From: a candidate division WOR-3 bacterium
GTDB taxonomy: Bacteria; Hydrothermota; Tepidihabitantia; Tepidihabitantales; JBDRVQ01
Direction: 5' to 3'
Length of the DNA stretch: 64,000 nt
Assembly (NCBI GenBank): GCA_039801905.1
Contig: JBDRVQ010000001.1
Coordinates: forward strand, 29,635 to 93,634
Shown: positions 2,011 through 58,187 of the stretch, piece by piece
Layout of the letters: every line of letters begins with the position of its first letter
Position numbering within the stretch: the stretch's first letter is position 1
The notes under the pieces: generated by a model
Database searches by the model: none
Seen by the model: only the letters and a program-made list of their open reading frames with translations
What the model was told of the DNA's origin: nothing
Translations under genes and position numbers: made by a program

Positions 2011-2085
2011 TGGTGGAAGGATGAGCAGAAATTGTGCCGGAGAGGAAGATTTACCGAAATGGAACTGAAAATTTAGTGTCAGAAA

Positions 2086-2114
2086 ATGGGGGGTATTTCC
2101 GTATTTATTATAGA
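2086..2114 (+). promoter_or_regulatory. promoter-like element of the copy A leader (ATGGGG-17-TATAGA), 5 nt from the sORF ATG
   Basis: Same layout as copies B and D, which have TTGGGG as the -35. The -35 is weaker here. Confidence 0.35.
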
Positions 2115-2119
2115 GGGCT

Positions 2120-2224
2120 ATGAAGAAGTTAAAAGAAATTATTAAGGTAAGTTATTGGGTTCTAATCCCAACCCTTATCTCAGAAGAGAGATTAAGGAGG
2201 TGTTATGAGATAATTAGCACTTAA
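2120..2224 (+). CDS. candidate leaderless small ORF (34 aa), MKKLKEIIKVSYWVLIPTLISEERLRRCYEIIST
   Basis: The ATG lies 5 nt after the -10-like hexamer. The paralogous copy at 33102-33200 differs by an in-frame 6-nt indel plus point changes. Confidence 0.3.
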   Translation: MKKLKEIIKVSYWVLIPTLISEERLRRCYEIIST

Positions 2225-2320
2225 TAAAAATGGCATTAAATCATAAGACCTTTATCAAACAGGAGGGGTTTATCTTTATAAAAAGGGGTGTAGCATACAG
2301 GGGATGGTATCAGGGATTTA

Positions 2321-2524
2321 ATGGAAGGGATAATAGAAGTTTTAATAAAAGGCGTAATTTTAGACTTAATCGGAGATTTAATAAAGGGTTTAATCAAGAA
2401 TTTAATAGAAGGTCTAAAAGAGGATATAAAGAGAAGGATAATCAGGAGCCTAAGCCAAGGTATAATCCAGAGCCTAATTAAAGGTTTAATCCGAAGTCTA
2501 AATGGAAGCCTAATCCTAAGAGAA
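2321..2524 (+). repeat. 12-nt phased degenerate tandem array, about 17 units (consensus A-T-H-N-R-R-R-N-Y-Y-T-A)
   Basis: Hand-phased units: atagaagtttta|ataaaaggcgta|attttagactta|atcggagattta|ataaagggttta|atcaagaattta|atagaaggtcta... I found no phase-breaking indel. Confidence 0.9.
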
Positions 2525-2676: not shown

Positions 2677-5600
2677 TCATTTCGTAATCACAAGTTTCTT
2701 TAATATCGCTTCTCTTCCTTTTCGGAAAAAAAGAAAATAGATACGGGGGGAGAGTCTTTGGGCATTGAAGAGAAAAGAGTCAGAATATTTCCCGGGCAAT
2801 TCTCTCCTTAAAAGAATATCAACCCGTCGGCCGGTAGCATCATAAAGGATGATCTCCAATCTCCCCGGCCTTTCTACCCGGTAGCTAATCTTTGCCTCCT
2901 GCCGGATAATGGTTGGTAATTCTAAATAGAGGGTTCGCTTCGCTGGTGAAAATAAAAGATCCGGAATGGTAAGGGAAGACATTGTGGTTCTCATCTCGTA
3001 AAACTCTTGGGTATTATTCCCTTTTAAGGCATAGACCTTGTCCTGGGCATAAGCCAGAGAAGCACCTTCTTTTACCCCTCTCCTTTTTCCGGTAATGGGT
3101 AAGGGAGTAAGGGAAAACCATCTCTCTCCTCTGATGTCATAAGCCCAAAATTCTGGACTATTTCCACCCTTAAAGGCATAGATAAGTTTTAACTTTTTAT
3201 CATAGGTTAATGCGCCATCTCTAACAACTTTTGCCTTCTCCGTGGGTGGCAAATCAAACAATTCCATCCATAAACGAAGACGGGGGGCATAGGCATAAAA
3301 CTTATTCGTCTTCCCTTTCAAAACATAGATATTCTGCCCATCAGTAGTGAGGGCACTTCCCCTATCAAATCGCTTCTTTCCTGGACCTTCGGGCGGAAAA
3401 GGTAAGTCTGTAAACCAAATCTCCCTCTCACAATTATAAGCATACCATTCCGTGGTTCTTCTCCCTTTCAAAAAATAGACATATCCGGTATCGCCCAATT
3501 GGAGATAGGTGAGTCCTGCCCCAGCCAAAACCTTCTTCTCACCCGGAACATCCGCTAACCTTAGCCAGACCGGTTCCTCCCTTTTTGTGTCGTAGCGCCA
3601 GAATTCTTTTGTGTTATGACCTCTAAGAAGATAGAGATACCTCCGACCATCATAAGTAATTGCCGCCCCCTTCCCTACCCGCTTTTTCGCCTCCGAATTT
3701 GGAAAACTGTCAACGAATTCCCAGGTGTCATTCCGAATAGAATATCGGTAGAAATCATTTGTATTATTCCCTTTTAAGGCGTAGATGGTGGTATCGTTAA
3801 CCGCCACCAAACATCCCCCACCCTTCACCTTTTTCTTACTGGGTCCTAAGGGAAACTCTGCTTTGGGAAACCAGAGGAAAGCGGGGGTTGATTCCGAGAG
3901 GATTAAGAAGTCGTCAATTAGCCAATAGTTTCCGTGATCACCACAATAGAGGAAGGCGATCCGAACAGTGGGCTTGCCAATTACGAAATCGGTAATTTCG
4001 TGAAGGACGTATCCGTAATCATCAGTTCCTTTATATTTCGCAATACTATGCCAACTCAAACCGTTATCCGTTGAGAGCAAAACTACTCCGGAGTCCGGAT
4101 ATCTTTCATTATCATCATAATCATTAAAGTAACTCAACCAAACGGAATTGGCAGTGGCACAGTTAATTACCGGGGAGATTAAGGTGTCATTATTCACCTC
4201 CAATATCTCATCGGAAATCATCGCTCCCCATCGCCCATTTTTTCTTCCCTTATGCCAATCGTTGGTATTCCAGACCGGAGGTGATTCACTTCCTCCCGCT
4301 CCAATGCGCCAACCAAAAGGTGGATTGTCACCATAAGGTCCCCAATCCCCATCAAAATCTTCCGCATAGAAGGGAGGGAAAACAATCTCTTTTTTTCTCA
4401 CCTTCACCCTCCGCCGGAAAGTATCGTTGCGTGGCCGCTCGTCTCCTCTCAGTTCGGTCCAGACCTTAACGGAACAGGTAACAATCCCTAAATAGTAAGG
4501 GGCAAGCCAATCGGGATTAAAGACCACTCGGGCAGTATCCCTACCCAATACGATAGAAAGTCTCTCTTCGCCTTGATATGAATAACCATCCGGTCCAGTG
4601 ATTTGGAGTTTCACCGGCACATCCCTTTGGGTCAAAAGCCCAACATTTTTCACTGTCGCCTGGATGGGATAACTACTTTCGCAATAGACCGTCTCCGGCA
4701 TATGAATGGCGATCGTTTTCAGATCATTGAGTAAGGGCTGGAAGGTGGAGATCGCCCTCCGACAATTGACCCTCCCCCAACCGTAATTGTTATTGGGATA
4801 GGGTCCACCTTGAATTGGCTGGTCCGAAGAATCAAGGAGAGCGGAATACACCGCCCGATACTCAGAAAACCCCTTATCCAGAAGCAAGGCGACCGCCCCG
4901 GCAATGTGGGGAGCAGCGGCGGATGTCCCTCTACTCACAATATAACCGCCTCCGGGAGAGGCGGAACGAATCCCAATCCCCGGGGCAACAAGGTCCGGTT
5001 TTATAAAATTCCAATCCAGTCTTCCCCAATACTCCGATTGATTCCAGGGCGGAAGATTGGGAGCCGGACCCCGACTGGAGAAACTTGCCACTGTATCGTT
5101 AATATCGGTTGCCCCAACACCAATCACAATTGGGAAGTTACCCGGTGCTAAGTCGGTCATTGGGTTAGGACCATTATTACCGATGGCAAAAACAGGAATA
5201 ATCTCAAGTTCTCTTAAATTCCGGAGGATATTCCAAAAGAGGGTGGCCGTTCTCTCCCCACCCCAAGAGTTGCTTATCACCTGGGGGGCATCTTCACCCA
5301 ATCCGGCAAACCATTGGAGACACTCCGCAATTATGGAAAACCATCCCGTTCCTAACCGGTCAAATCCCTTAGCGGCAATAAATTGGGCACCGGGTGCCAC
5401 ACCGATATCCTCGGGAAAAGGACCAAAACCATCACCACCACAGATTATCCCCATCGTGTAAGTGCCATGCCCATTATCATCATAAGGGGTTTGATGATGG
5501 GCAACGGCATCAAACCAGCCGTTGCGCTCCCGCCAGCGGTTGCCAAAAGCCGGATGATAAACATCAACTCCGGTGTCTAAATTGCCTACGACAACCCCTT

Positions 5601-6090
5601 CCCCGGTATAGCCCAATGCCCAACAAGAATCCGCTTTGATCTTTGTAATGTTCCATTCCGGATCCTCCAAGAGATCGCGCTCCGTTGATTTTGTCAATTT
5701 TGGTAATTGGATGACGAAATCTTCAACCAGATAATCCACTCCCTCCCAATCCTTTATCTTTTTTATCATCTCCGGGGTTGCCTTAAAGGCGATAAAGTTA
5801 GCAATCCAAAAGGACCGCTCATTGGTGATACCAATTTCTCTTAACTTCTTAATAATGGGTTCTTGACTTTTTTGGGCAAAGGCTTTCAAGTAATTAACCT
5901 TCTCCTCTCTACTCTTTCCCTTTAATAAAGAAAGGTCGGCTTCCTCTGTCAGATGGAGGACGATCGGAATCGTTGTGTCAGGTTTTGCCTTTTGGAGAAT
6001 GGTACCAAGGGATGGGAGAATCTCACCGCCGAAGAGAAAGGTTAAGGGAAGGATGGCAAAGATAAATTTCTTGCCTTTCTTTAACCCCAT
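2677..6090 (-). CDS. secreted subtilisin-like (S8) serine protease with six Kelch-like blades and a T9SS/FlgD-Ig-like C-terminal domain
   Basis: Signal peptide. Asp/His/Ser triad contexts are NLDTGVD, HGTYTMG and GTSAAAPHIAG. Six repeats match YxLKGxxTxEFWxYD. The C-terminus (EIILYDATGRRV...) resembles a Por-type sorting domain. Confidence 0.8.
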   Translation of the reverse strand: MGLKKGKKFIFAILPLTFLFGGEILPSLGTILQKAKPDTTIPIVLHLTEEADLSLLKGKSREEKVNYLKAFAQKSQEPIIKKLREIGITNERSFWIANFIAFKATPEMIKKIKDWEGVDYLVEDFVIQLPKLTKSTERDLLEDPEWNITKIKADSCWALGYTGEGVVVGNLDTGVDVYHPAFGNRWRERNGWFDAVAHHQTPYDDNGHGTYTMGIICGGDGFGPFPEDIGVAPGAQFIAAKGFDRLGTGWFSIIAECLQWFAGLGEDAPQVISNSWGGERTATLFWNILRNLRELEIIPVFAIGNNGPNPMTDLAPGNFPIVIGVGATDINDTVASFSSRGPAPNLPPWNQSEYWGRLDWNFIKPDLVAPGIGIRSASPGGGYIVSRGTSAAAPHIAGAVALLLDKGFSEYRAVYSALLDSSDQPIQGGPYPNNNYGWGRVNCRRAISTFQPLLNDLKTIAIHMPETVYCESSYPIQATVKNVGLLTQRDVPVKLQITGPDGYSYQGEERLSIVLGRDTARVVFNPDWLAPYYLGIVTCSVKVWTELRGDERPRNDTFRRRVKVRKKEIVFPPFYAEDFDGDWGPYGDNPPFGWRIGAGGSESPPVWNTNDWHKGRKNGRWGAMISDEILEVNNDTLISPVINCATANSVWLSYFNDYDDNERYPDSGVVLLSTDNGLSWHSIAKYKGTDDYGYVLHEITDFVIGKPTVRIAFLYCGDHGNYWLIDDFLILSESTPAFLWFPKAEFPLGPSKKKVKGGGCLVAVNDTTIYALKGNNTNDFYRYSIRNDTWEFVDSFPNSEAKKRVGKGAAITYDGRRYLYLLRGHNTKEFWRYDTKREEPVWLRLADVPGEKKVLAGAGLTYLQLGDTGYVYFLKGRRTTEWYAYNCEREIWFTDLPFPPEGPGKKRFDRGSALTTDGQNIYVLKGKTNKFYAYAPRLRLWMELFDLPPTEKAKVVRDGALTYDKKLKLIYAFKGGNSPEFWAYDIRGERWFSLTPLPITGKRRGVKEGASLAYAQDKVYALKGNNTQEFYEMRTTMSSLTIPDLLFSPAKRTLYLELPTIIRQEAKISYRVERPGRLEIILYDATGRRVDILLRRELPGKYSDSFLFNAQRLSPRIYFLFFRKGREAILKKLVITK

Positions 6091-6096
6091 AAAACT

Positions 6097-6124
6097 ATTA
6101 TAAAGAAGAAGGGAGGGGAGTCAA
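6097..6124 (-). promoter_or_regulatory. sigma70-type promoter for the S8 protease (TTGACT-16-TATAAT), 6 nt from the ATG
   Basis: Minus strand: ttgact cccctcccttcttctt tataat agtttt ATG. Confidence 0.5.
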
Positions 6125-6243
6125 TCTTCTCGGCAAGGGTTAACAAAGTTATGGTTGATGGTTTGCCCTTGCCAGAGGAATATTTTTAACGCTTTCCCAA
6201 TTTTGGGATGGTCACGACCTCTGTAAACATTACACAAACAGTA

Positions 6244-6271
6244 TTGATCTTATCCGAAATCGCTTTATAAT
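6244..6271 (+). promoter_or_regulatory. sigma70-type promoter for addB (TTGATC-16-TATAAT), 7 nt from the ATG
   Basis: ttgatc ttatccgaaatcgctt tataat cctccaa ATG. No Shine-Dalgarno sequence is present. Confidence 0.5.
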
Positions 6272-6278
6272 CCTCCAA

Positions 6279-9023
6279 ATGAGGAACTTATATCTCTTTC
6301 CTTTTGGGAAGGAAGGGGCAACGAAAAGGCTCCTATCGGATGCCCTATCCCTTTCGGAAAAGGGAAAAAATCGGGATTATTCTGAGATCCTGTATCTGGC
6401 ACCTACACCCCGAAAGGCAAGGGAGGCGATAAAAATTTTTATCTCCCTTTTTCCTAACTCTCCTTTTGCCTTTATCCCACCCCGGTTTTTAACGATAAAG
6501 ACCTTAGCCCAAGAGATATACTCTTCTTTTGCGGAGAAGGTATTTCTGCCCGATTCCTTAAAACCCGTCTTTCTTAAAAGTTTGATTAAAGGAAACTTCT
6601 CTCTTAGCTATTACTATCACATCGGAGAGTTGATTAAAGACTTAAAATCCGCCAATCTGATGAGAGAATGGGAAAAGACCAAAGGGTTAATCAAAAATCG
6701 TTTAGCCCCCTTTTCCCCAAAGAGGCTGAGAATGGAGGAGATATTTGCGCTAATAGAAAGATACGAGGAAGGCCTTAAAGAAAATTCCCTTGCCGATTCC
6801 GAAGATATATTGAAGGAGGCGACAATTTATTTGCAAAAAAGAAAGAAAAGGAAAGGGGTTCTGGTAATTGACGGGTTTATGGATTTGACGAAGTTGGAAG
6901 AAGATTTTTTATCCGCCTTAATCAATAACTTTGAGCATATCCTCGCCTTAGCCTATTTTGATACCCGGTTTCCCGAGATTTATTCCCTCCCTAAGGAGTT
7001 TGCCGATTTCATCTCTTCCTTAGGAGGGTTTGAGGTGATAGAAGAGAGAGGAGATGATAGTTTCTTAGAGCGGGAGAAGATGGCTTTCTTAGAATTTCCT
7101 TCCCGGGAAGAAGAGGTGGAAGGGATTGCCCAAAAGATAAAAAAGTTATTCTTGGATGGGAAATTATCACTTTCCCAGACGATCGTCACCTTTCCCGATT
7201 TAAATAGTTATGCCCCAATTGTGGAAAGGGTCTTTAAGAAGTATAAAATCCCTTTCACCCTTTATCCCCAACGTTCCCTTCTCGCCTCGCCGGTGGTGAT
7301 ACCGGTAATTAATCTATTAAGGGCGGTGGTTGATGACTATCCATTTTTGCCAACGATAACTTGCCTCACTTCTCCTTTCTTCTCTCGTTTCCATATCAAG
7401 ACCAGAAATTTTGTCTCCTATTATGCCCGGCGGGCAAAAATCATTAAAGGGGAATTTAGTTGGCGGAATTTGGTCCGGGATTTGATTAAAGAATATAGAG
7501 AGGAGAAAGGGAAGAAGTCTTCTCTTCCCGGTATCTTCCAAGTAGAAAGGGATATCAATCTCTTCCTTTCAGTGAGCGGCACCCTAAAGAGGGAAAGAGG
7601 GAAAATTACCGACTTTCTCTCCCTTCTCTCCTCCGTTCTTAAAGAGTTGGGTTGGCCCGGAGAATTAAAGGAAGAAGACTTAGAACTCTGGGAAGATAAG
7701 AAAGAGTTGGTTTCTATCTTTCAGGGTTTAGAGTCTTTCCGGGAAACCGAATGTAGTCTGGCAGAATTTTTAGAGATCTTAGAGACAATTCTCAAATATC
7801 ATCCCATTATTCCGGAGCGGGAGGAGAAAGGGGTTAGGATATTAGGATTATTGGAGACAAGGGGTTTAACCGCAAAACATATCTTCTTCGGCGGTCTCTG
7901 TGAGGGAAGTCTCCCTTCCCCTTTAAGACACGACCCATTTTTGCCCGATTGGCTTAGGGAAAAATTAAATCTTTTGCATTTAGAAAGACACCAAAAGTGG
8001 CAGAGACTTCATTTCTTCCGAATATTAAGGTCCGCCCAAGAGATTTATCTCTCCTATCCCCGTCAGGAAGGTGAAAGACTATTTCTCCCTTCTCCCTTCT
8101 TAGAAGGGGAAGCGATTTTGGCAAAAAGGGAGAGAATAATCTTTACCGAGGAGGAGAAAGAGCGCCTTTTAGGATTAGGAGAGGAGAAGGATTTTTCTTC
8201 GGAAGGGGTTGATTTCTCTACCGACCGAGAAGCGAAAAGGGTTTTGAAAAGAAGGTTTTATCCCTATGTCCAAGTGACCGAGATTGAGAAACTGAGAAGA
8301 TGTCCTTACAACTTCTATTTGGAAAATATCTTAGGATTGGTAACAGAAGAGGAGACAAAATTTGAGATTGAACCTCGGGAATGGGGAGAATTGGCGCATC
8401 AGGTTTTGGAAAGGCTCTATGCGGAAAGAAAAGAATTTATCCCCTTAGAGGAGATACCGAAAAGGGTAGAAAAGATTCTCTCCTCCCTCCTCGCCCAGAG
8501 TGGCTTTCCCCTTTTCTGGCAGGATGTGGCAAAGAAGATTTTTGAAAAGATTTTACCCAACTTCTTAGAGATGGAAAAAGAACTAAGGGAAAAAGGGTAT
8601 TATCCGGAAAGGATTGAGGAGCGGGTGAAAGGAGATCTCCTCAGAATTAATCTCTACGGCAAGATTGACCGGATTGATAAAAACCAAGATAATAAATATC
8701 TGATTCTGGATTACAAAACCGGGGGCACGGATATTTATCCCGGAGACATTGAAAAGGGGAAGCATCTCCAACTCCCCCTCTATTCCCTCCTCCTGCGGCG
8801 AAAGGGTTTAGCGGTAAGTGGATTTGCCCTCTATTCCTTTAAGGAGAAGAAGGTGAAATGGCTAGCCAAGGATGAGGTTGATTGCCAAGAAAAAGAAGAA
8901 TTGGCGCAAAAATTTGCCCAAGAAGTACTCCAAGAGGCACTCCAGGGAATTTTTCCTGCGGCCCCAGTTGATGAAGGGGTCTGTCGGTTCTGCCTTTATT
9001 CTTTTCTCTGTGCTCAGGAGTAG
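6279..9023 (+). CDS. addB: ATP-dependent helicase/nuclease subunit B (AddB-type, PD-(D/E)XK nuclease with Fe-S cysteines)
   Basis: C-terminal nuclease motif DRIDKN...LILDYKTG. Cysteines at RRCPYNFY and CRFCLYSFLC. Immediately upstream of addA. Confidence 0.75.
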   Translation: MRNLYLFPFGKEGATKRLLSDALSLSEKGKNRDYSEILYLAPTPRKAREAIKIFISLFPNSPFAFIPPRFLTIKTLAQEIYSSFAEKVFLPDSLKPVFLKSLIKGNFSLSYYYHIGELIKDLKSANLMREWEKTKGLIKNRLAPFSPKRLRMEEIFALIERYEEGLKENSLADSEDILKEATIYLQKRKKRKGVLVIDGFMDLTKLEEDFLSALINNFEHILALAYFDTRFPEIYSLPKEFADFISSLGGFEVIEERGDDSFLEREKMAFLEFPSREEEVEGIAQKIKKLFLDGKLSLSQTIVTFPDLNSYAPIVERVFKKYKIPFTLYPQRSLLASPVVIPVINLLRAVVDDYPFLPTITCLTSPFFSRFHIKTRNFVSYYARRAKIIKGEFSWRNLVRDLIKEYREEKGKKSSLPGIFQVERDINLFLSVSGTLKRERGKITDFLSLLSSVLKELGWPGELKEEDLELWEDKKELVSIFQGLESFRETECSLAEFLEILETILKYHPIIPEREEKGVRILGLLETRGLTAKHIFFGGLCEGSLPSPLRHDPFLPDWLREKLNLLHLERHQKWQRLHFFRILRSAQEIYLSYPRQEGERLFLPSPFLEGEAILAKRERIIFTEEEKERLLGLGEEKDFSSEGVDFSTDREAKRVLKRRFYPYVQVTEIEKLRRCPYNFYLENILGLVTEEETKFEIEPREWGELAHQVLERLYAERKEFIPLEEIPKRVEKILSSLLAQSGFPLFWQDVAKKIFEKILPNFLEMEKELREKGYYPERIEERVKGDLLRINLYGKIDRIDKNQDNKYLILDYKTGGTDIYPGDIEKGKHLQLPLYSLLLRRKGLAVSGFALYSFKEKKVKWLAKDEVDCQEKEELAQKFAQEVLQEALQGIFPAAPVDEGVCRFCLYSFLCAQE

Positions 9024-18864: not shown

Positions 18865-18937
18865 TGGGTCGTGCAGGATTCGAACCTGCGGCCACCGGAT
18901 TAAAAATCCGGTGCTCTGCCACCTGAGCTAACGACCC
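18865..18937 (-). tRNA. tRNA-Lys (anticodon UUU)
   Basis: The reverse complement GGGTCGTTAGCTCAGGTGGCAGAGCACCGGATTTTTAATCCGGTGGCCGCAGGTTCGAATCCTGCACGACCCA folds as a 73-nt cloverleaf. Acceptor stem 7 bp, anticodon loop TTTTTAA, T-loop TTCGAAT. No CCA is encoded. Confidence 0.93.
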
Positions 18938-19104: not shown

Positions 19105-19311
19105 CTAATCATTCTCAATTAGGCTTCCATTTTCCCTTCGGATTAAACCCATAGTTAGACATAGGATTAAACTCTTTATTATCCCTTCTATTAAACTCTG
19201 AATTAAAGTTCCAATTATACCCTCTTTTAGAGTATTTATTAAATCCTCAATTAGATCTCCAATTACGTGTAAAATTATCCCTTATTTTAGACCCTATATT
19301 ATGCCTTCCAT
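19105..19311 (-). repeat. 12-nt phased degenerate tandem array, 17 units
   Basis: Minus strand: atggaaggcata|atatagggtcta|aaataagggata|attttacacgta|attggagatcta|... |attgagaatgat|tag. Confidence 0.9.
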
Positions 19312-19411
19312 TAAATCCCCGATACCATCCCCTGTATGCTACACCCTTTTTACAAAAATAAATCCCTCCTTTCTAAGGATAGTTTTTCTTATCAGTTAGT
19401 TAATTTATTAT

Positions 19412-19439
19412 ATTATAAAGCAATTTTGGAAGATGTCAA
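19412..19439 (-). promoter_or_regulatory. near-consensus sigma70 promoter (TTGACA-16-TATAAT) reading into box + array C
   Basis: Minus strand: attgaca tcttccaaaattgctt tataat ataataaatt. Confidence 0.6.
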
Positions 19440-32731: not shown

Positions 32732-33067
32732 TTTTCACCTCTTCACTAAAATTAAGTTTAGGGGAAAAAAAGGGAAAGTCAACATTGGTATGGAAGCAAT
32801 AAGAGAGAAGAGCCACTTTATGGTGGTAGAGATTTTTGACCAAAAGAATTGAATTTCTCGTTGATGATAATACCTTGCCAAAATAAACCTCTCGCCACCT
32901 TCTATTCAAGAAGAAGAGTTACAATCTAAGGAGTGAGCGGAAGATAAAAAGATGAAATAGAACTTTCCCACTTCGGTGGTCACACCCTTCTGAAAAGTGT
33001 CTCTTGAATTAAATAAGTTATTATAAATCAAAGGCTTATAAAAAAGGGGGAAATTTAGTGTCAGAAA

Positions 33068-33096
33068 TTGGGGGGTATTTCCGTATTTATTATAGA
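33068..33096 (+). promoter_or_regulatory. promoter-like element of the copy B leader (TTGGGG-17-TATAGA), 5 nt from the sORF ATG
   Basis: ttgggg ggtatttccgtatttat tataga gggct ATG. Confidence 0.4.
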
Positions 33097-33101
33097 GGGC
33101 T

Positions 33102-33200
33102 ATGAAGAAGTTAAAAGAAATTATTAAGGTAAGTGATTGGGTTCTAATCCCAACCCTTGAAGAGAGATTGAGGAGGTATTATCGGGTAATTAGCACTTAA
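33102..33200 (+). CDS. candidate leaderless small ORF (32 aa), MKKLKEIIKVSDWVLIPTLEERLRRYYRVIST
   Basis: Paralogue of 2120-2224. Both share the same start context and the same stop (AGC ACT TAA). Confidence 0.3.
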   Translation: MKKLKEIIKVSDWVLIPTLEERLRRYYRVIST

Positions 33201-33297
33201 TAAAAATGGCATTAAATAATAAAAAACTTTATCAAACAGGAGGGGTTTATCTTTATAAAAAGGGGTGTAGCATACAGGGGATGGTATCGGGGATTTA

Positions 33298-33516
33298 ATG
33301 GAAGGCATAATCTAAGGCATAATTTTAGGCTTAATCGGAGTTTTAATAGAGGGTTTAATTGAGAATCTAATAAATACTCTAAAAGAAGTTATAACCGGCG
33401 GTATAATCAGAAGCCTAATTCAGAGTTTAATAGAAAGGATAATAAAGAGTTTAATCATGTGTCTAATTAAGGGTTTAATCCGAAGGGAAAATAGAAACCT
33501 AATTGAGAATGATTAG
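33298..33516 (+). repeat. 12-nt phased degenerate tandem array, 18 units
   Basis: atggaaggcata|atctaaggcata|attttaggctta|atcggagtttta|atagagggttta|attgagaatcta|...|attgagaatgat|tag. Confidence 0.9.
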
Positions 33517-33745
33517 TGGAGAAGAATAATCTTTTCTCTTTGAATAGAGCCCTCGCTTTCCATCCGCTCCCAATAAATGGGTAAAACTTTCCCCGGATGC
33601 GCATCGTGTGCCAATGAGGGCAAAATCTGATTTCCTTGCTGGGTGGATACCGGGAAACTATCAATAATAACACCAGAAGGATTTAAGCGGGCACCATAGA
33701 TATCAGATCACAAGATAATTTATGCCATCTTTCCCGGATTTTATG

Positions 33746-55606: not shown

Positions 55607-56502
55607 CTCATTTTCTTTTCAATCGCCTCCAATCTCTCAATAATGGCGGAGAAGGACTCACCCAAAAGTCCTAAACCGAAAAGGAGGATTCCGGTTAAGA
55701 TTAAAAGAATTACCAAATATAAGAGGGGACGAAAACCGTGGCCCAAGATTCTTAAGATGATACTTAAAATCCCTAAGAGGAAACCAAGAAGGAAGGAGGC
55801 GGCTCCGACACTCCCAAAGTAGAGGAGGGGCTTTTTCATAAAGGATAGTTGAAAGGCGACCGCGATCAGGTCAAAAAAGCCAATGACGATCCGTTTCTTT
55901 GATTGATACTTCGGTTCACCCGCCCTTCGGGGATAGAGTTTTACCGGGATTTCGGTAATCTTCGCCCCCTCCGCCCAAACCAAAGGGACGAGATAGCGGT
56001 GCCAATCCTTACGCAGTTTTAATCGGGCGACAACCTCTTTCCGGAAGGCTTTAATGGCGTTGATATCGTGGACCGGTAAAGAGAAGATTTTTCTGGCTAA
56101 AAAGTTATAAATTAGGGAGACGAACTTCTTTTCGTATTTACCCACCTTCCAACCAACACACATATCATAGCCTTCCTCAATCTTGGCGACTAACTTTGGG
56201 ATGTCCGAGGCGGCAAACTGCAAATCCGCATCATAAATTATGATAATCTCCCCTTCACTCGCCTCAAGACCTGTCAATATGGCATCAGTCTTCCCTCGGT
56301 TTTGGGGATGACGGAGGATTCGGACCCGAGGATATTTCGCCGCCTCTTTTAATGCCAATTCCCAAGTACCATCGGTTGAACCATCATCCACCACAATTAT
56401 CTCGTAGGTCTCATCTAAATTGTTATGCAATTCTGCCAAAAGGGAAGGGATATTTAATACCTCATTATAAGCGGGACAGATTACCGTCTTTTCTATCGCC
56501 AT
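55603..56502 (-). CDS. glycosyltransferase family 2 (GtrB/polyprenyl-phosphate glycosyltransferase-like) with two C-terminal TM helices
   Basis: CPAYNE, VVDDGSTDGT, YDADLQF. Hydrophobic C-terminus. Confidence 0.8.
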   Translation of the reverse strand: MAIEKTVICPAYNEVLNIPSLLAELHNNLDETYEIIVVDDGSTDGTWELALKEAAKYPRVRILRHPQNRGKTDAILTGLEASEGEIIIIYDADLQFAASDIPKLVAKIEEGYDMCVGWKVGKYEKKFVSLIYNFLARKIFSLPVHDINAIKAFRKEVVARLKLRKDWHRYLVPLVWAEGAKITEIPVKLYPRRAGEPKYQSKKRIVIGFFDLIAVAFQLSFMKKPLLYFGSVGAASFLLGFLLGILSIILRILGHGFRPLLYLVILLILTGILLFGLGLLGESFSAIIERLEAIEKKMR

Positions 56503-56513
56503 TTATCCAACGT

Positions 56514-56541
56514 ATTGTAACCAATTTTTCCCTTTTGTCAA
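56514..56541 (-). promoter_or_regulatory. sigma70 promoter (TTGACA-16-TACAAT), 11 nt from the GT2 ATG
   Basis: Minus strand: ttgaca aaagggaaaaattggt tacaat acgttggataa ATG. Confidence 0.5.
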
Positions 56542-56589
56542 CCTTGGTTTTATAATAAAAAGGACTCTTAAACCCTACTTTTCCCAATC

Positions 56590-56712
56590 AAATAAGTTAT
56601 TAAAAATCAAAGACTTATAAAAAAGGGAAAGATTTGGTGTCCAATTTTTGGGGGTATTTCCGTATTTATTATAGAGGGGTATTGGGTTCTAATCCCAACC
56701 CCGAAAAGAGAG
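56590..56712 (+). repeat. Dispersed composite element, copy D, leader module (promoter + extended hairpin)
   Basis: Positions 56590-56680 are about 85% identical to 33011-33100. The hairpin GGGGTATTGGG-TTCTAAT-CCCAACCCC lies at 56677-56703. Confidence 0.85.
56648..56675 (+). promoter_or_regulatory. promoter-like element of the copy D leader (TTGGGG-16-TATAGA)
   Basis: ttgggg gtatttccgtatttat tataga, followed by the hairpin and then the AAGAGAGG Shine-Dalgarno sequence of ORF 56719. Confidence 0.4.
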
Positions 56713-56718
56713 GTGCGT

Positions 56719-57087
56719 ATGAAAGATGCTTTAAGGCGAATAGAGAAGTATATATCTAAGTTAGAACCAGAGATTATAAGAAGAGATTTTGCCCAATTGA
56801 AAGAGAAGATGCTACAACAGATTACCACCTACTTTATAGAGATCTTTGAGGTTGAGACAAAGGCAAAGGCGATTTTAAGCGAATACGACCTACCGGTTAG
56901 TCTTATCCCCTTTTATCTATGCTATGCCCGGGAATTATATAGCCTTTCTAAGAGATATGCGGGATTTCCTCTCTTCCGGGAGATAAGGATTAGGGAGGGA
57001 AAATGGCGAAATAGAACTCTCCAACCGGAAATTTTAAGAAGGATAAGATTTGATATATTTGGCATAACCTTACCGGAGGAGATATGA
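56719..57087 (+). CDS. hypothetical helical protein (122 aa), paralogue 1 of a tandem pair
   Basis: AAGAGAGG lies 5 nt upstream of the ATG at 56719; the ORF-track start at 56713 is a GTG. It shares 13 of 34 ungapped identities with the next ORF (VETKAKAILSEYDLPVSLIPFYLCYARELYSLSK vs VEEKVKEILEERGISVIYHFAYYAFGRKVYKLLK). Confidence 0.55.
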   Translation: MKDALRRIEKYISKLEPEIIRRDFAQLKEKMLQQITTYFIEIFEVETKAKAILSEYDLPVSLIPFYLCYARELYSLSKRYAGFPLFREIRIREGKWRNRTLQPEILRRIRFDIFGITLPEEI

Positions 57088-57419
57088 GGATTGAGATAAA
57101 GAAGAAGAAGTCACTGGAGAGATTGGCGAAGATGGCAAGGAGATATGCAGTTTATTATCCAGATGCTACAAGGAGTTACCTGAAAGGGATAGTTGACTAT
57201 GTCCTATTTGTGGAAGAGAAGGTGAAAGAGATTTTGGAGGAGCGGGGAATTTCGGTTATTTATCACTTTGCCTATTATGCCTTCGGTAGAAAGGTCTATA
57301 AACTCCTAAAAGAGAAGAAGGATTCCCAAATCCCTTCTTTAATTGAGGAGTGGGTGAAAGATAAATGTCTTTCCCGAGATGTTTTATCAGAGATTAAGGA
57401 GGCTTTATCGGAGAAGTAG
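57084..57419 (+). CDS. hypothetical helical protein (111 aa), paralogue 2 of a tandem pair
   Basis: ATGA overlap with the upstream ORF. GGAGGAG lies upstream. I recognise no family. Confidence 0.55.
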   Translation: MRIEIKKKKSLERLAKMARRYAVYYPDATRSYLKGIVDYVLFVEEKVKEILEERGISVIYHFAYYAFGRKVYKLLKEKKDSQIPSLIEEWVKDKCLSRDVLSEIKEALSEK

Positions 57420-57463
57420 GTCTTAAATAAGACTTAAGTTAAGTGATAAAAATTTTATGATGT

Positions 57464-57715
57464 AGGAGGGTTTTGTCTTTAGAAAAAGGGGTGTAGCATA
57501 CAGGGGATGGTATCGGGGTTCTAATGGAAAGTCTAAGTAACGGTCTAAACTTAGGTCTAATTGGAGTTCTAAATAAGGGTCTAAAAGAAGGTCTAAAAGT
57601 AGGGGTAATAAAAAGAGTAATTGGAAATCTAATTAAGAGTCTAATTGAAAATTTAATCCGAAGTCTAATTATAGTTTTAACCGAAAGCCCAATTGAAAGT
57701 CTAACCTCAAGTCTA
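57464..57715 (+). repeat. Dispersed composite element, copy D, box + 12-nt phased array (16 units from 57524)
   Basis: AGGAGGGTTTTGTCTTTAGAAAAAGGGGTGTAGCATACAGGGGATGGTATCGGGGTTCTAATGGAAAG, followed by agtaacggtcta|aacttaggtcta|attggagttcta|aataagggtcta|... (unit consensus aaGTCTAAtt). Confidence 0.9.
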
Positions 57716-57755
57716 AATATCGGCTCGGTGAAAATAGGGGAGGGCAATAACACTA

Positions 57756-57784
57756 TTGACAAGAATACTTTTTTTGTGTATATT
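57756..57784 (+). promoter_or_regulatory. sigma70 promoter (TTGACA-17-TATATT) upstream of the HU gene
   Basis: ttgaca agaatactttttttgtg tatatt ttagga ATG. It gives a 5' region of about 125 nt ahead of the HU ATG. Confidence 0.55.
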
Positions 57785-57914
57785 TTAGGAATGGAAGTGG
57801 CGATAGCGCCCCTCGGGGCAATACCTTGCCAAATCAATCTTTTCCCAACCATTTCTCTTTTAATAAGAAACTATCGTCCACCTTCCAAAAATCCTATTAA
57901 GGGGGTGATAAAAT

Positions 57915-58187
57915 ATGAAGAAAGCCGAACTTATTGAGAAAATCGCCAAGGATGCAGGCATCTCCAAGAAACAGGCGGGGCTCGCTCTCCAATCCTTTAT
58001 GGATGCGGTGAAGATGGTGATGAAGAAAGATGACGAACTGACCCTTCCCAAATTTGGCCGGTTCTATGTGAAGAAGACAAAAGCCCGAATTGGCCGGAAT
58101 CCAAAAACCGGAGAGGAGATAAAAATTCCAGCCAGGAAGAGACCGGCCTTCCGCGCGGGGAAGGAATTAAAACTCGCTGCTAAATAA
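57915..58187 (+). CDS. HU/IHF-family DNA-binding protein
   Basis: MKKAELIEKIAKDAGISKKQA...GRNPKTGEEIKIPARKRPAFRAGKELK. A GGGGGTG Shine-Dalgarno sequence lies 7 nt upstream. Confidence 0.9.
   Translation: MKKAELIEKIAKDAGISKKQAGLALQSFMDAVKMVMKKDDELTLPKFGRFYVKKTKARIGRNPKTGEEIKIPARKRPAFRAGKELKLAAK

What the first reader, a model, noticed from the sequence alone, without database searches (positions are those of the whole stretch)
56590..57715. Copy D is split: leader and box+array flank a two-gene cassette, revealing a modular promoter-cargo-array architecture
In copies A and B, the leader (promoter + hairpin) and the box+array are about 100-160 nt apart. In copy D, the same leader (56590-56712) and the same box+array (57464-57715) are separated by two translationally coupled ORFs (56719-57087 and 57084-57419). 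The junctions fall right after the hairpin (gaaaagagaggtgcgtATG in D, gaagagagattRaggaggtRtta in A/B) and just before AGGAGGG of the box. Either D is the intact operon, with the array as its 3' module, and A/B are cargo-deleted derivatives retaining a micro-ORF, or the cassette was inserted into D. In both cases the array behaves as the terminal module of a transcription unit. The two unknown proteins are the best candidates for a factor that functions with it.
Basis: partly seen in the sequence, partly recalled or inferred. Interest (0 to 1): 0.65.

Follow-up and report, generated by a model that had tools for sequence, protein, structure and literature searches.

The report
Bacterial virus-capsid-like proteins with 12-bp track
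In a hot-spring bacterium (candidate division WOR-3), two adjacent genes encode relatives of the coat proteins that archaeal filamentous viruses use to wrap 12 base pairs of DNA per protein pair, and they are followed by about 17 short DNA motifs spaced exactly 12 bases apart, so this looks like a built-in assembly track for a capsid-like protein of a kind so far reported only from archaeal viruses.

Summary
Copy D (56590-57720) has the same upstream block and hairpin as copies A and B and the same box+array as A, B and C, but it is split by two overlapping genes (ATGA overlap).

D is the intact form. A and B keep 31 nt of the ORF2 3' end, and related genomes show intermediate deletion stages.

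The array is a strict 12-nt register of YTAAT units, 17-18 per window copy. It is not coding and is not predicted to fold as RNA. Every gene pair whose downstream DNA could be read has a box plus 12-nt units. The motif differs by lineage (CTAAT, CTATT, GATAT, AGTATA).

Best reading: an ORF1-ORF2 heterodimer assembles on the array, one dimer per unit, nucleated at the box. Binding, and DNA versus RNA, are inferred. In the searched literature this capsid fold is called exclusive to archaeal viruses, so bacterial chromosomal homologues with a cognate track appear new.

The parts
56590..56678 (+). Copy D: conserved upstream block. It includes the 28-nt invariant GGGGTATTTCCGTATTTATTATAGAGGG at 56651-56678. 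Its role (promoter or operator) is unverified.
   Evidence: B 33011-33103 matches D 56590-56682 at 87%. The block is also found upstream of ORF1 in L002, L008, L015 and, in diverged form, in L016 and L023. The sigma-70 scan does not call it.
56676..56702 (+). Copy D: leader hairpin GGGG-TA-TTGGG-TTCTAAT-CCCAA-CCCC. The loop carries the same TCTAAT as the array units.
   Evidence: the 5-bp core stem is kept in 7 sequences with G-U changes, and covariation is weak. The hairpin is absent from the syntenic locus L002 and from L018. It resembles the box core plus the first array unit (23 of 2000 shuffles).
56719..57087 (+). ORF1, 122 aa, pI 9.4. Homologue of Adnaviria-type (SIRV2-fold) capsid proteins.
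57084..57419 (+). ORF2, 111 aa, pI 9.4. Second Adnaviria-type capsid-protein homologue, overlapping ORF1 by ATGA.
57420..57433 (+). Palindrome GTCTTAAATAAGAC immediately after the ORF2 stop codon.
   Evidence: It is conserved in L008-L011. Its role is unknown.
57464..57516 (+). Copy D: box. AGGAGGG, a T-rich stretch, TAGAAAAAGGGG, then the core GTAGCATACAGGGGATGGTATCGG. It keeps a fixed register with the array.
   Evidence: The core GC(G)ATACAGGGG is conserved in L016 and L018 and recognisable in L017. The offset from box to array is the same in all 13 distinct copies. D versus L002 identity is 86% for the box and 66% for the array.
57517..57720 (+). Copy D: array of 17 units of exactly 12 nt, consensus ARGTCTAATYRA.
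   Evidence: It is not coding. As RNA it is no more structured than shuffles (z = +1.5).
2068..2517 (+). Copy A: deletion derivative. Block plus hairpin at 2068-2174, ORF2 3' remnant at 2187-2217, box at 2261-2313, array at 2314-2517 (17 units).
33011..33506 (+). Copy B: deletion derivative. Block plus hairpin at 33011-33156, ORF2 3' remnant at 33163-33193, box at 33238-33290, array at 33291-33506 (18 units).
19115..19439 (-). Copy C: solo box+array with its own 12/12 consensus promoter TTGACA-16-TATAAT (19439-19412). Box at 19370-19319, array at 19318-19115 (17 units).
   Evidence: The same promoter-plus-box architecture is seen in L004 and L005.

Best explanation
Copy D is the intact member of a small multi-copy element. 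It has so far been found on bacterial-type contigs, and all named members come from candidate division WOR-3.

The element encodes two paralogous, basic, roughly 115-aa proteins. Both are homologues of the major capsid proteins of filamentous archaeal viruses (realm Adnaviria, SIRV2 fold). By analogy with the paralogous MCP pairs of lipothrixviruses, ORF1 and ORF2 probably form a heterodimer.

The conserved box and the 12-nt-phased array downstream are the cognate nucleic-acid track. The invariant box (ATACAGGGG..GGTATC), which sits in a fixed register with the array, would nucleate binding. One heterodimer would then occupy each 12-bp YTAAT unit, giving a short polar nucleoprotein filament of about 17-19 dimers. 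The substrate is most likely duplex DNA held in A-form, as in the virions.

Copies A and B have lost the genes by internal deletion, and copy C has box+array only. All three would be further tracks served in trans by the single gene pair in D.

Shown here: the homology, the paralogy, purifying selection on both genes, the strict 12-nt register, the non-coding nature of the array, its co-occurrence with the gene pair, the lineage-specific motifs, and the direction of deletion.

Inferred: heterodimer formation, binding to the array, DNA rather than RNA as substrate, nucleation at the box, and any cellular role.
For: 2. Sequence. The ORF2 family profile hits AFV1 ORF132 (E 1e-4) and the SIRV2 coat protein (E 5e-4) as the best PDB sequences. 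Pfam Sulf_coat_C or MCP_C are the best Pfam hits. Six of 12 family members match, and one (P0017) exceeds the cut-off at 4.6e-9.
3. Paralogy. ORF1 and ORF2 are paralogues encoded side by side with an ATGA overlap. Lipothrixvirus virions likewise use a heterodimer of two homologous MCPs (PMC6105669, PMC5517147).
4. Footprint. One MCP heterodimer covers 12 bp of A-form DNA in AFV1 (PMC5517147) and in SFV1 (PMC6105669).
5. Register. The array period is exactly 12 in all 13 distinct copies. Only whole-unit indels are seen, and the phase to the box is fixed.
6. Co-occurrence. Every gene pair with readable downstream DNA carries a box plus 12-nt units: L002, L008-L010, L011-L014, L016, L017, L018 and L023.
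7. Lineage-specific motifs. The unit motif is YTAAT in the window clade and YTAA in L016, CTATT with P0012 (36% identity), GATAT(T/A) with P0013 (42% by BLAST; 37.5% in the global alignment), and AGTATA with P0018 (33%).
8. Polarity. The motif is non-palindromic, which fits the polar filaments that heterodimers build (PMC6105669).
9. Protein properties. Both proteins are basic, pI 9.4, and under purifying selection.
10. Conservation pattern. The box is conserved (86-96%) while array units diverge (66-73%) yet keep motif and phase.
Against: - No binding data exist, and a heterodimer or DNA complex could not be modelled with these tools.
- Adnaviria MCPs are not known to read DNA sequence, so specificity for YTAAT would be new.
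- Solo arrays in the window (C) and in L004 and L005 sit behind perfect consensus promoters pointing into the array. The array always has the same orientation as the genes. Both points argue that transcription, and possibly RNA, matters.
- The match between a period of 12 and a 12-bp footprint could be coincidence. Periods that are multiples of 3 or 4 are common.
- Window ORF2 alone scores below the Pfam cut-offs (17.6 versus 25.2 bits).
- Foldseek against BFVD gives high probability (0.97) but non-significant E-values.
- In L023 the array has only about 3 units.
- More distant single-gene relatives (L021, L022, L024) show no array, although two of those contigs (L021, L022) are only about 1.4 kb long.
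Confidence: 0.55

Rival explanations
1. RNA-level track. The box+array is transcribed, with ORF1-ORF2 in D and from its own strong promoter in solo copies. The unstructured, purine-rich RNA, or an RNA:DNA hybrid formed behind the G-clusters of the box, is what the capsid-like proteins bind. The array would then act as a scaffold or sponge, with one dimer per 12 nt.
For: - C, L004 and L005 have 12/12 consensus TTGACA-16-TATAAT promoters about 40-50 nt upstream of AGGAGGG, directed into the array.
- The orientation of box then array relative to the genes or promoter is invariant.
- The array RNA is predicted to be unstructured and therefore accessible.
- The leader hairpin displays the same UCUAAU in its loop.
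- RNA duplexes and RNA:DNA hybrids are naturally A-form (general knowledge).
Against: - All characterised homologues wrap double-stranded DNA (PMC5517147, PMC6105669).
- No intrinsic terminator is called after any of the four arrays.
- There is no Rfam match.
- A single-stranded RNA cannot supply the duplex that the fold is known to wrap.
- The L017 array is pyrimidine-rich, so purine-richness of the transcript is not general.
Confidence: 0.22
2. Remnant or selfish element. The cassette is what is left of, or is, a mobile virus-like element of bacteria. It carries two capsid genes plus a repeat array that served as a packaging or terminal signal. It has been copied around the genome and is decaying, with no host function.
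For: - The genes are capsid-protein homologues.
- Several copies lie within 64 kb, with a graded series of internal deletions as seen for non-autonomous derivatives of mobile elements.
- An identical ORF2 protein occurs in three different neighbourhoods, one resembling a defence island.
- Copy C lies next to a tRNA gene.
Against: - No other virion, replication or integration genes were recognised among the called neighbours of the loci read (Pfam tables; several small neighbours carry no Pfam family).
- The D locus is syntenic between glycosyltransferase and HU genes in at least three assemblies.
- Both genes are under purifying selection across lineages down to 37-50% identity.
- Box and register are conserved in gene-less copies.
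- No relatives were found in IMG/VR or INPHARED.
- No terminal inverted repeats or target duplications were noticed, but no dedicated search for them was run.
Confidence: 0.13
3. The array encodes a repetitive peptide, (G/S)-L-I-x repeated about 17 times, translated from the ATG at 57524. The box supplies its ribosome-binding site.
For: - The frame is open in A (84 aa), D (137 aa) and L002.
- An ORF was called over the L018 array (96 aa) and over part of the L009 array.
- AGGAGGG looks like a Shine-Dalgarno sequence.
Against: - In-frame stops occur in 6 of 10 arrays. The total of 9 compares with 12.8 +/- 2.6 expected from column-preserving shuffles, so stops are not depleted.
- The ATG is missing in L002, L008 and L016.
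- AGGAGGG lies about 55 nt upstream of that ATG.
- The 'Leu' codon is NTA in 160 of 174 units. CTA accounts for 43% of units, although CTA makes up only 5% of Leu codons in the window's genes.
- The second position reads I, K, N, T or S, so it is conserved as a nucleotide (A), not as an amino acid.
- The D ORF runs through the HU promoter into the HU gene.
- No Pfam, NCBIfam or PHROG family matches.
Confidence: 0.03
4. The link is only positional. The box+array is a generic 3' or intergenic element, such as an insulator, a roadblock terminator or a curved-DNA element. It is read by some other factor and merely travels with the gene pair.
For: - Solo arrays exist without genes nearby (copy C, L004, L005).
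- B, C and D each lie upstream of a co-directional gene or tRNA.
Against: - The array motif differs between protein lineages while the 12-nt period is kept.
- Co-occurrence holds in five lineages.
- The period equals the known footprint of this protein fold.
Confidence: 0.07

Closest known systems
Nucleocapsids of filamentous archaeal viruses (realm Adnaviria: Rudiviridae such as SIRV2 and SSRV1; Lipothrixviridae such as AFV1, SIFV and SFV1; Tristromaviridae such as PFV2)
   Same: - Two paralogous proteins, encoded side by side here, as in the MCP heterodimers of lipothrixviruses.
- One heterodimer per 12 bp of A-form DNA in AFV1 and SFV1, which equals the array period here.
- Thermophilic habitat.
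   Different: - Bacterial chromosome, not an archaeal virus. No other virion genes were recognised nearby.
- A sequence-defined, phased track of only about 17-19 units, rather than sequence-independent coating of a whole linear genome.
- A conserved box, and extra gene-less tracks elsewhere in the genome.
- Binding and A-form DNA are not shown here.
Plasmid centromeres made of short direct repeats and coated by an adaptor protein (ParR-parC of R1; TubR-tubC of pBtoxis, whose repeats I recall as 12 bp; from memory, not checked here)
   Same: A tandem array of short phased repeats next to the gene of the small DNA-binding protein that polymerises on it. The array can also act as an operator for autoregulation.
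   Different: - No partition NTPase (ParM or TubZ) is present.
- The protein fold is different (RHH or winged helix there, SIRV2-type helical bundle here).
- The element is chromosomal and multi-copy.
- There are two paralogous proteins.
Origin-of-assembly or packaging signals of helical viruses, for example the TMV OAS with G at every third base (from memory)
   Same: A periodic sequence motif whose period equals the nucleotide footprint of one coat subunit, nucleating a helical nucleoprotein.
   Different: In TMV the substrate is RNA, the period is 3 nt and the signal is a structured hairpin. Here the period is 12 and no RNA structure is predicted.
Alpha/beta-type small acid-soluble spore proteins of Bacillus (from memory)
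   Same: Small cellular proteins that coat DNA and shift it towards A-form, protecting it from heat and damage.
   Different: The fold is unrelated, there are no sequence-specific arrays, and expression is spore-specific.
Protein-sequestering small RNAs with repeated motifs (CsrB/RsmZ) and type III toxin-antitoxin repeat RNAs (ToxI) (from memory)
   Same: A tandem array of short motifs genetically linked to the protein that binds them. Some copies have strong dedicated promoters.
   Different: - In CsrB the motifs sit in hairpin loops. ToxI repeats are about 36 nt and lie upstream of an endoribonuclease gene.
- Here the units are 12 nt and unstructured, lie downstream of the genes, are followed by no detected terminator, and the proteins are capsid-like.

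Membership tests
SIRV2-type (Adnaviria) major capsid protein family | Alpha-helical fold: a long N-terminal helix plus a C-terminal four-helix bundle | tested here: met
   [not shown]
SIRV2-type (Adnaviria) major capsid protein family | Sequence match to the family profiles (Pfam PF12193 Sulf_coat_C, PF21660 MCP_C) | tested here: inconclusive
   - Window ORF2 scores 17.6 and 17.1 bits, below the cut-offs of 25.2 and 27. ORF1 has no hit.
- Six of 12 family members hit Sulf_coat_C, and P0017 passes with 36.9 bits.
- The family profile against PDB sequences gives AFV1 ORF132 E 1e-4 and SIRV2 E 5e-4.
SIRV2-type (Adnaviria) major capsid protein family | A homo- or heterodimer wraps A-form double-stranded DNA, 12 bp per dimer in AFV1 and SFV1 | not testable with these tools
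   Only indirect evidence: the two paralogues are adjacent and the array period is exactly 12. The footprint comes from PMC5517147 and PMC6105669.
Adnaviria virus genome | Encoded on a linear dsDNA genome of an archaeal virus, together with other virion and replication genes | tested here: not met
   - The neighbours are bacterial housekeeping genes: HU, aminotransferase, glycosyltransferase, IF-2B family, ClpB, Omp85, PolA.
- No relatives were found in IMG/VR or INPHARED.
- The named sources are all candidate division WOR-3.
Protein-coding tandem-repeat gene (array as ORF) | Open frame with a start codon in all copies, and codon usage typical of the genome | tested here: not met
   - Stops occur in 6 of 10 arrays, and stops are not depleted compared with column shuffles.
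- The codons are NTA and CTA, which are rare in this genome's genes.
- The ATG is absent in several copies.
Known structured RNA family (Rfam) | Match to a covariance model, or a stable conserved fold | tested here: not met
   - No Rfam hit was found at the gathering threshold or at E <= 10 in 56500-57950, apart from chance-level matches.
- The folding z-score is +1.5.
Type III toxin-antitoxin (ToxIN-like) | An RNA repeat array of about 34-40 nt upstream of an endoribonuclease toxin gene, separated by a terminator | tested here: not met
   The units are 12 nt and lie downstream of the genes. The proteins have no nuclease or PADLOC match.
Partition centromere systems (ParMRC, TubZRC) | A repeat array plus adaptor protein plus a cytomotive NTPase in one operon | tested here: not met
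   The operon holds only the two MCP-like genes. No NTPase is adjacent at the D locus.

The most novel reading that the evidence does not exclude
WOR-3 bacteria may possess a cellular A-form-DNA wrapping system. In this reading the box+array elements are chromosomal origins of assembly, about one per 16 kb in this window. A capsid-like ORF1/ORF2 heterodimer would nucleate on them and could spread to coat and protect DNA at high temperature or in dormancy. This would be functionally like spore SASPs and structurally like an Adnaviria nucleocapsid.

It would be either the long-missing cellular relative of the Adnaviria capsid protein or the first domesticated capsid of that realm, and in a bacterium rather than an archaeon.

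The array length of 17-19 units is close to two turns of an AFV1-like helix (9.3 heterodimers per turn, PMC5517147). That could be the minimal stable seed.
Probability: 0.15. Interest if true: 0.95.

Novelty: new variant of a known kind. Interest (0 to 1): 0.85.

Why it matters
The SIRV2-type capsid protein defines a whole virus realm (Adnaviria). In the papers searched it is described as unique, 'exclusive to archaeal filamentous viruses', and unconnected to anything in bacteria (PMC9246712, PMC10848233). Its origin is therefore open.

Conserved, selected homologues in bacterial chromosomes would give that question a concrete handle. One could ask whether they are the cellular ancestor, a capture by the bacterium, or an unknown bacterial virus.

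The sequence-defined 12-bp track also offers a simple in-vitro substrate. It could be used to study how these proteins nucleate, set their register and drive DNA into A-form. That question cannot be posed with sequence-independent virion assembly.

For genome annotation, the finding explains a set of conserved 'intergenic repeats' and spurious repeat ORFs in WOR-3 assemblies. It also flags them as likely sites of recombination or mis-assembly.

Tried and rejected
- Rfam at gathering thresholds over the whole window, and at E <= 10 over 56500-57950, found only a tRNA and chance-level hits.
- Scanning JGI metagenome contigs with the 18-nt box core gave two matches, both unrelated sequence.
- The GTDB genome scan found the box only in one other WOR-3 MAG (four loci), plus one hit in a Mucilaginibacter genome that was not inspected and is probably chance.
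- IMG/VR scans with the ORF1 and ORF2 alignments found no relative. The broader alignment A2 was too diverse for that tool.
- tblastn of ORF2 and of P0017 against INPHARED phage records gave no match.
- PADLOC gave no match for ORF1 or ORF2 and only chance-level hits for two relatives. NCBIfam and PHROGs gave nothing meaningful for either protein or for the array 'ORFs'.
- Array as coding sequence: rejected.
- Box+array as structured RNA: no support.
- Shared leader block as a consensus sigma-70 promoter: not called by the scan.
- Intrinsic terminators after the arrays: none called.
- The A/B micro-ORF as a conserved small protein: unlikely. It crosses the hairpin and reads the ORF2 remnant out of frame. 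Only two copies are available to judge.
- A small ORF starting after AGGAGGG: the candidate start codons are ATC, GTC, ATT or CTT, copy C has a 1-nt deletion, and lengths range from 6 to 70 codons. Rejected.
- Leader similarity to box core plus first unit: only weakly significant (23 of 2000 and 60 of 2000 shuffles) and absent in L016. Kept as a lead only.
- The AFDB Foldseek library was unavailable. Foldseek against BFVD ranks lipothrixvirus and rudivirus coat proteins highest by probability, but with weak E-values.
Full report
**Observation**

The window holds four copies of a conserved box followed by a 12-nt-period array:
- A: box from 2261, array 2314-2517.
- B: box from 33238, array 33291-33506.
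- C, on the minus strand: box 19370-19319, array 19318-19115.
- D: box 57464-57516, array 57517-57720.

The 32-nt box core is identical in A, B and D and differs at 2 positions in C. None is expected by chance.

A, B and D also share a 28-nt invariant block and a hairpin. In D, block plus hairpin (56590-56702) and box+array are separated by ORF1 (56719-57087) and ORF2 (57084-57419), which overlap by ATGA.

In D's array, TAA is in phase in 16 of 17 units, against at most 6 in 5000 shuffles.

**Which form is ancestral**

Local alignment shows that A 2187-2333 and B 33163-33310 match D 57389-57536. A and B therefore still carry the last 31 nt of ORF2, including its stop codon. The deletion spans roughly D 56712-57388.

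Related genomes show other stages of decay:
- L001 fuses the first codons of ORF1 to the ORF2 C-terminus in frame (MRDGIKDVKVLLEIKEGLSEK*).
- L011-L014 have an internally deleted ORF1 and a truncated ORF2.
- L002, L008, L009, L010, L015, L016 and L018 have both genes intact.

Both genes are under purifying selection, with dN/dS of 0.11-0.33. D is therefore the intact element, and A and B are deletion derivatives. C, L004 and L005 form a second class: box+array behind a 12/12 consensus TTGACA-16-TATAAT promoter.

**Host and distribution**

The box core occurs in one other GTDB species representative, a hot-spring candidate division WOR-3 MAG, at four loci. All named homologues are from WOR-3.

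The family is tiny. There are 6 ORF2 and 4 ORF1 relatives among 5.8 billion proteins, and 10 hits to the ORF2 profile among 1.84 billion cluster representatives.

The neighbouring genes are bacterial housekeeping genes: HU, aminotransferase, glycosyltransferase, ClpB, Omp85 and PolA. The D locus is syntenic in L009 and L002.

**What the proteins are**

ORF1 and ORF2 are paralogues (hhalign probability 96.4%, E 1.2e-9 over 88 columns).

- SIFV MCP2 and MCP1, SFV1 and PFV2.

Sequence profiles agree. The ORF2 family profile finds AFV1 ORF132 (E 1e-4) and the SIRV2 coat protein (E 5e-4) as the best PDB sequences. Pfam Sulf_coat_C is the most frequent Pfam hit in the family, matched by 6 of 12 members, one above the cut-off. 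Window ORF2 alone is sub-threshold.

Both proteins are basic, pI 9.4. Foldseek against BFVD ranks lipothrixvirus and rudivirus coat proteins first by probability (0.97), but with weak E-values.

**What the array is**

Across ten arrays (174 units) the unit consensus is A-R-G-T-C-T-A-A-T-Y-R-A. T6, A7 and A8 are nearly invariant at 1.6-1.9 bits, and the other positions are weak. The register is exact in every copy, and differences between orthologous arrays are whole units. The offset between box core and array is the same in all 13 distinct copies.

The array is not a gene:
- The frame that reads (G/S)-L-I-x has stops in 6 of 10 arrays. The total is 9, against 12.8 ± 2.6 expected from shuffles that keep each column's composition.
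- Its 'Leu' codon is NTA in 160 of 174 units. CTA is the commonest, although CTA makes up only 5% of Leu codons in the window's genes.
- The ATG is absent in several copies.
- In D the ORF runs through the HU promoter into the HU gene.

As RNA, box+array folds no better than shuffles (z = +1.5). Rfam has nothing.

**The link between proteins and array**

Every gene pair whose downstream DNA is available is followed by a box and 12-nt units, and the motif differs by lineage:

| Lineage | ORF2 identity to window | Unit motif | Units |
|---|---|---|---|
| Window clade | - | YTAAT | 17-21 |
| L016 | 47-49% (ORF1 61%) | YTAA | 18 |
| L017 (P0012) | 36% | CTATT | about 9 |
| L018 (P0013) | 42% BLAST / 37.5% global | GATAT(T/A) | 18-19 |
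| L023 (P0018, also WOR-3) | 33% | AGTATA | about 3 |

The box core GC(G)ATACAGGGG is kept in L016 and L018 and is recognisable in L017. In L018 it is visibly the first unit of the array, in phase.

Between D and L002, ORF1 is 92% identical, the box 86% and the array 66%. The units are free to change as long as motif and phase are kept.

More distant single-gene relatives (L021, L022, L024) show no array, but L021 and L022 are only about 1.4 kb long.

**Mechanism proposed**

In AFV1 and SFV1, one heterodimer of two homologous MCPs wraps exactly 12 bp of A-form DNA. Heterodimer filaments are polar (PMC5517147; PMC6105669).

Here there are two adjacent paralogues of that fold. Next to them lies a polar, non-palindromic motif repeated at exactly 12 bp, 17-19 times. 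It is preceded by an invariant, in-phase box.

The simplest reading has three parts:
- ORF1 and ORF2 form a heterodimer that nucleates at the box.
- One dimer then occupies each unit, building a short nucleoprotein filament.
- The gene-less arrays A, B and C are extra tracks served in trans, because tblastn finds no other copy of either gene in the window.

Binding, heterodimerisation, A-form DNA and any cellular role are inferences. I put 0.55 on this reading.

**The main open point: DNA or RNA**

Three observations favour a role for transcription:
- The solo arrays have perfect promoters.
- The array orientation is fixed relative to the genes or promoter.
- The same TCTAAT sits in the leader hairpin loop.

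The leader's 3' part also resembles box core plus first unit. That resemblance is weak, but it could mark an autoregulatory site.

Three observations argue against a discrete RNA product:
- No terminators are called after any array.
- No RNA structure is predicted.
- All known relatives of the proteins bind duplex DNA.

A virus-remnant or selfish-element reading explains the copy number and the decay series. It does not explain the synteny, the selection on the genes, or the apparent lack of other viral genes.

**Novelty**

In the papers searched, this capsid fold is described as unique to Adnaviria. It is called 'exclusive to archaeal filamentous viruses', and the realm is said to be unconnected to bacterial viruses. 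No paper found mentions bacterial homologues or a phased track.

The proteins are new, distant members of a known fold family. The system itself is a chromosomal bacterial gene pair plus a sequence-defined 12-bp track, with extra solo tracks. That combination is a new variant with no described counterpart.

Noticed in passing
window 18865-18937 (-): A tRNA gene (Rfam 75 bits) lies directly downstream of solo copy C and has its own TTGACT-16-TAAGAT promoter. tRNA genes are classic integration or recombination sites.
   Followed up: no
window 33507-33590 (+) and 19114-19030 (-): Copies B and C share about 75 nt of homologous sequence beyond the end of the array (…GATTAGTGGAGA..AATAATCTTTTCT..GAGCC.TCGCTTTCCATCCGCTCCCAATAAATGGGT). 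They were therefore duplicated as a unit larger than box+array, although B has the leader and C has a different promoter.
   Followed up: partly
L008, L009, L010 (ORF2 at 6001-6336, 3732-4067 and 6001-6336): The identical ORF2 protein P0001 sits in three neighbourhoods. L009 matches the window synteny. L008 lies after nSTAND NTPase and type IIG methyltransferase genes. L010 has the upstream side of L009 and the downstream side of L008. This points to recombination, or MAG mis-assembly, at the repeated element.
   Followed up: partly
window 56682-56698; L015 289-305: The leader hairpin GGGTTCTAATCCC (GGGTTCAAATCCC in L015) looks like a tRNA T-arm, with an outer GGGG/CCCC stem stacked on it like an acceptor-T minihelix. 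It may be a 5' stabiliser or a processing signal. It is absent from L002 and L018.
   Followed up: partly
window 56669-56693 versus 57498-57524: The leader's TATAGAGGGGTATTGGGTTCTAAT resembles box core plus first unit, TACAGGGGATGGTATCGGGGTTCTAAT. The similarity is reached by 23 of 2000 shuffles in D and 60 of 2000 in L001, and is not seen in L016. It is a possible autoregulatory binding site at the start of the operon.
   Followed up: partly
L001 about 290-235 (-) and L002 about 4900-4860 (-): In one WOR-3 species the spacer between ORF2 and the box carries an extra GC-rich hairpin (CGCC..GGCG) that the window lacks. It could be an internal terminator or attenuator between the genes and the array.
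   Followed up: no
L022 112-1419: A high-GC 1.4-kb metagenome contig carries four tandem MCP-like genes (116, 94, 157 and more than 67 aa) with overlapping stops and starts and no array. This is a different organisation of the same protein family, from an unknown host.
   Followed up: no
window ORF1 versus ORF2 in comparisons with L002 and L008: Synonymous divergence of ORF2 is 2.5-4 times that of ORF1 in the same genome pairs (dS 0.81 versus 0.33, and 0.31 versus 0.08). This suggests a mosaic history, or gene conversion between copies.
   Followed up: no
window 57524-57937 (+) and 57439-57852 (-); L009 4425-4586; L018 5420-5710: Long ORFs open on both strands across the array are artefacts of the 12-nt repeat. 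Gene callers have annotated such ORFs in related assemblies.
   Followed up: yes
window 57756-57784 (+): The HU gene (57915-58187) has a near-consensus TTGACA-17-TATATT promoter that starts only about 35 nt after the last array unit. A filament on the array would sit immediately upstream of the promoter of a nucleoid protein gene. The same arrangement is seen in L002 and L009.
   Followed up: no
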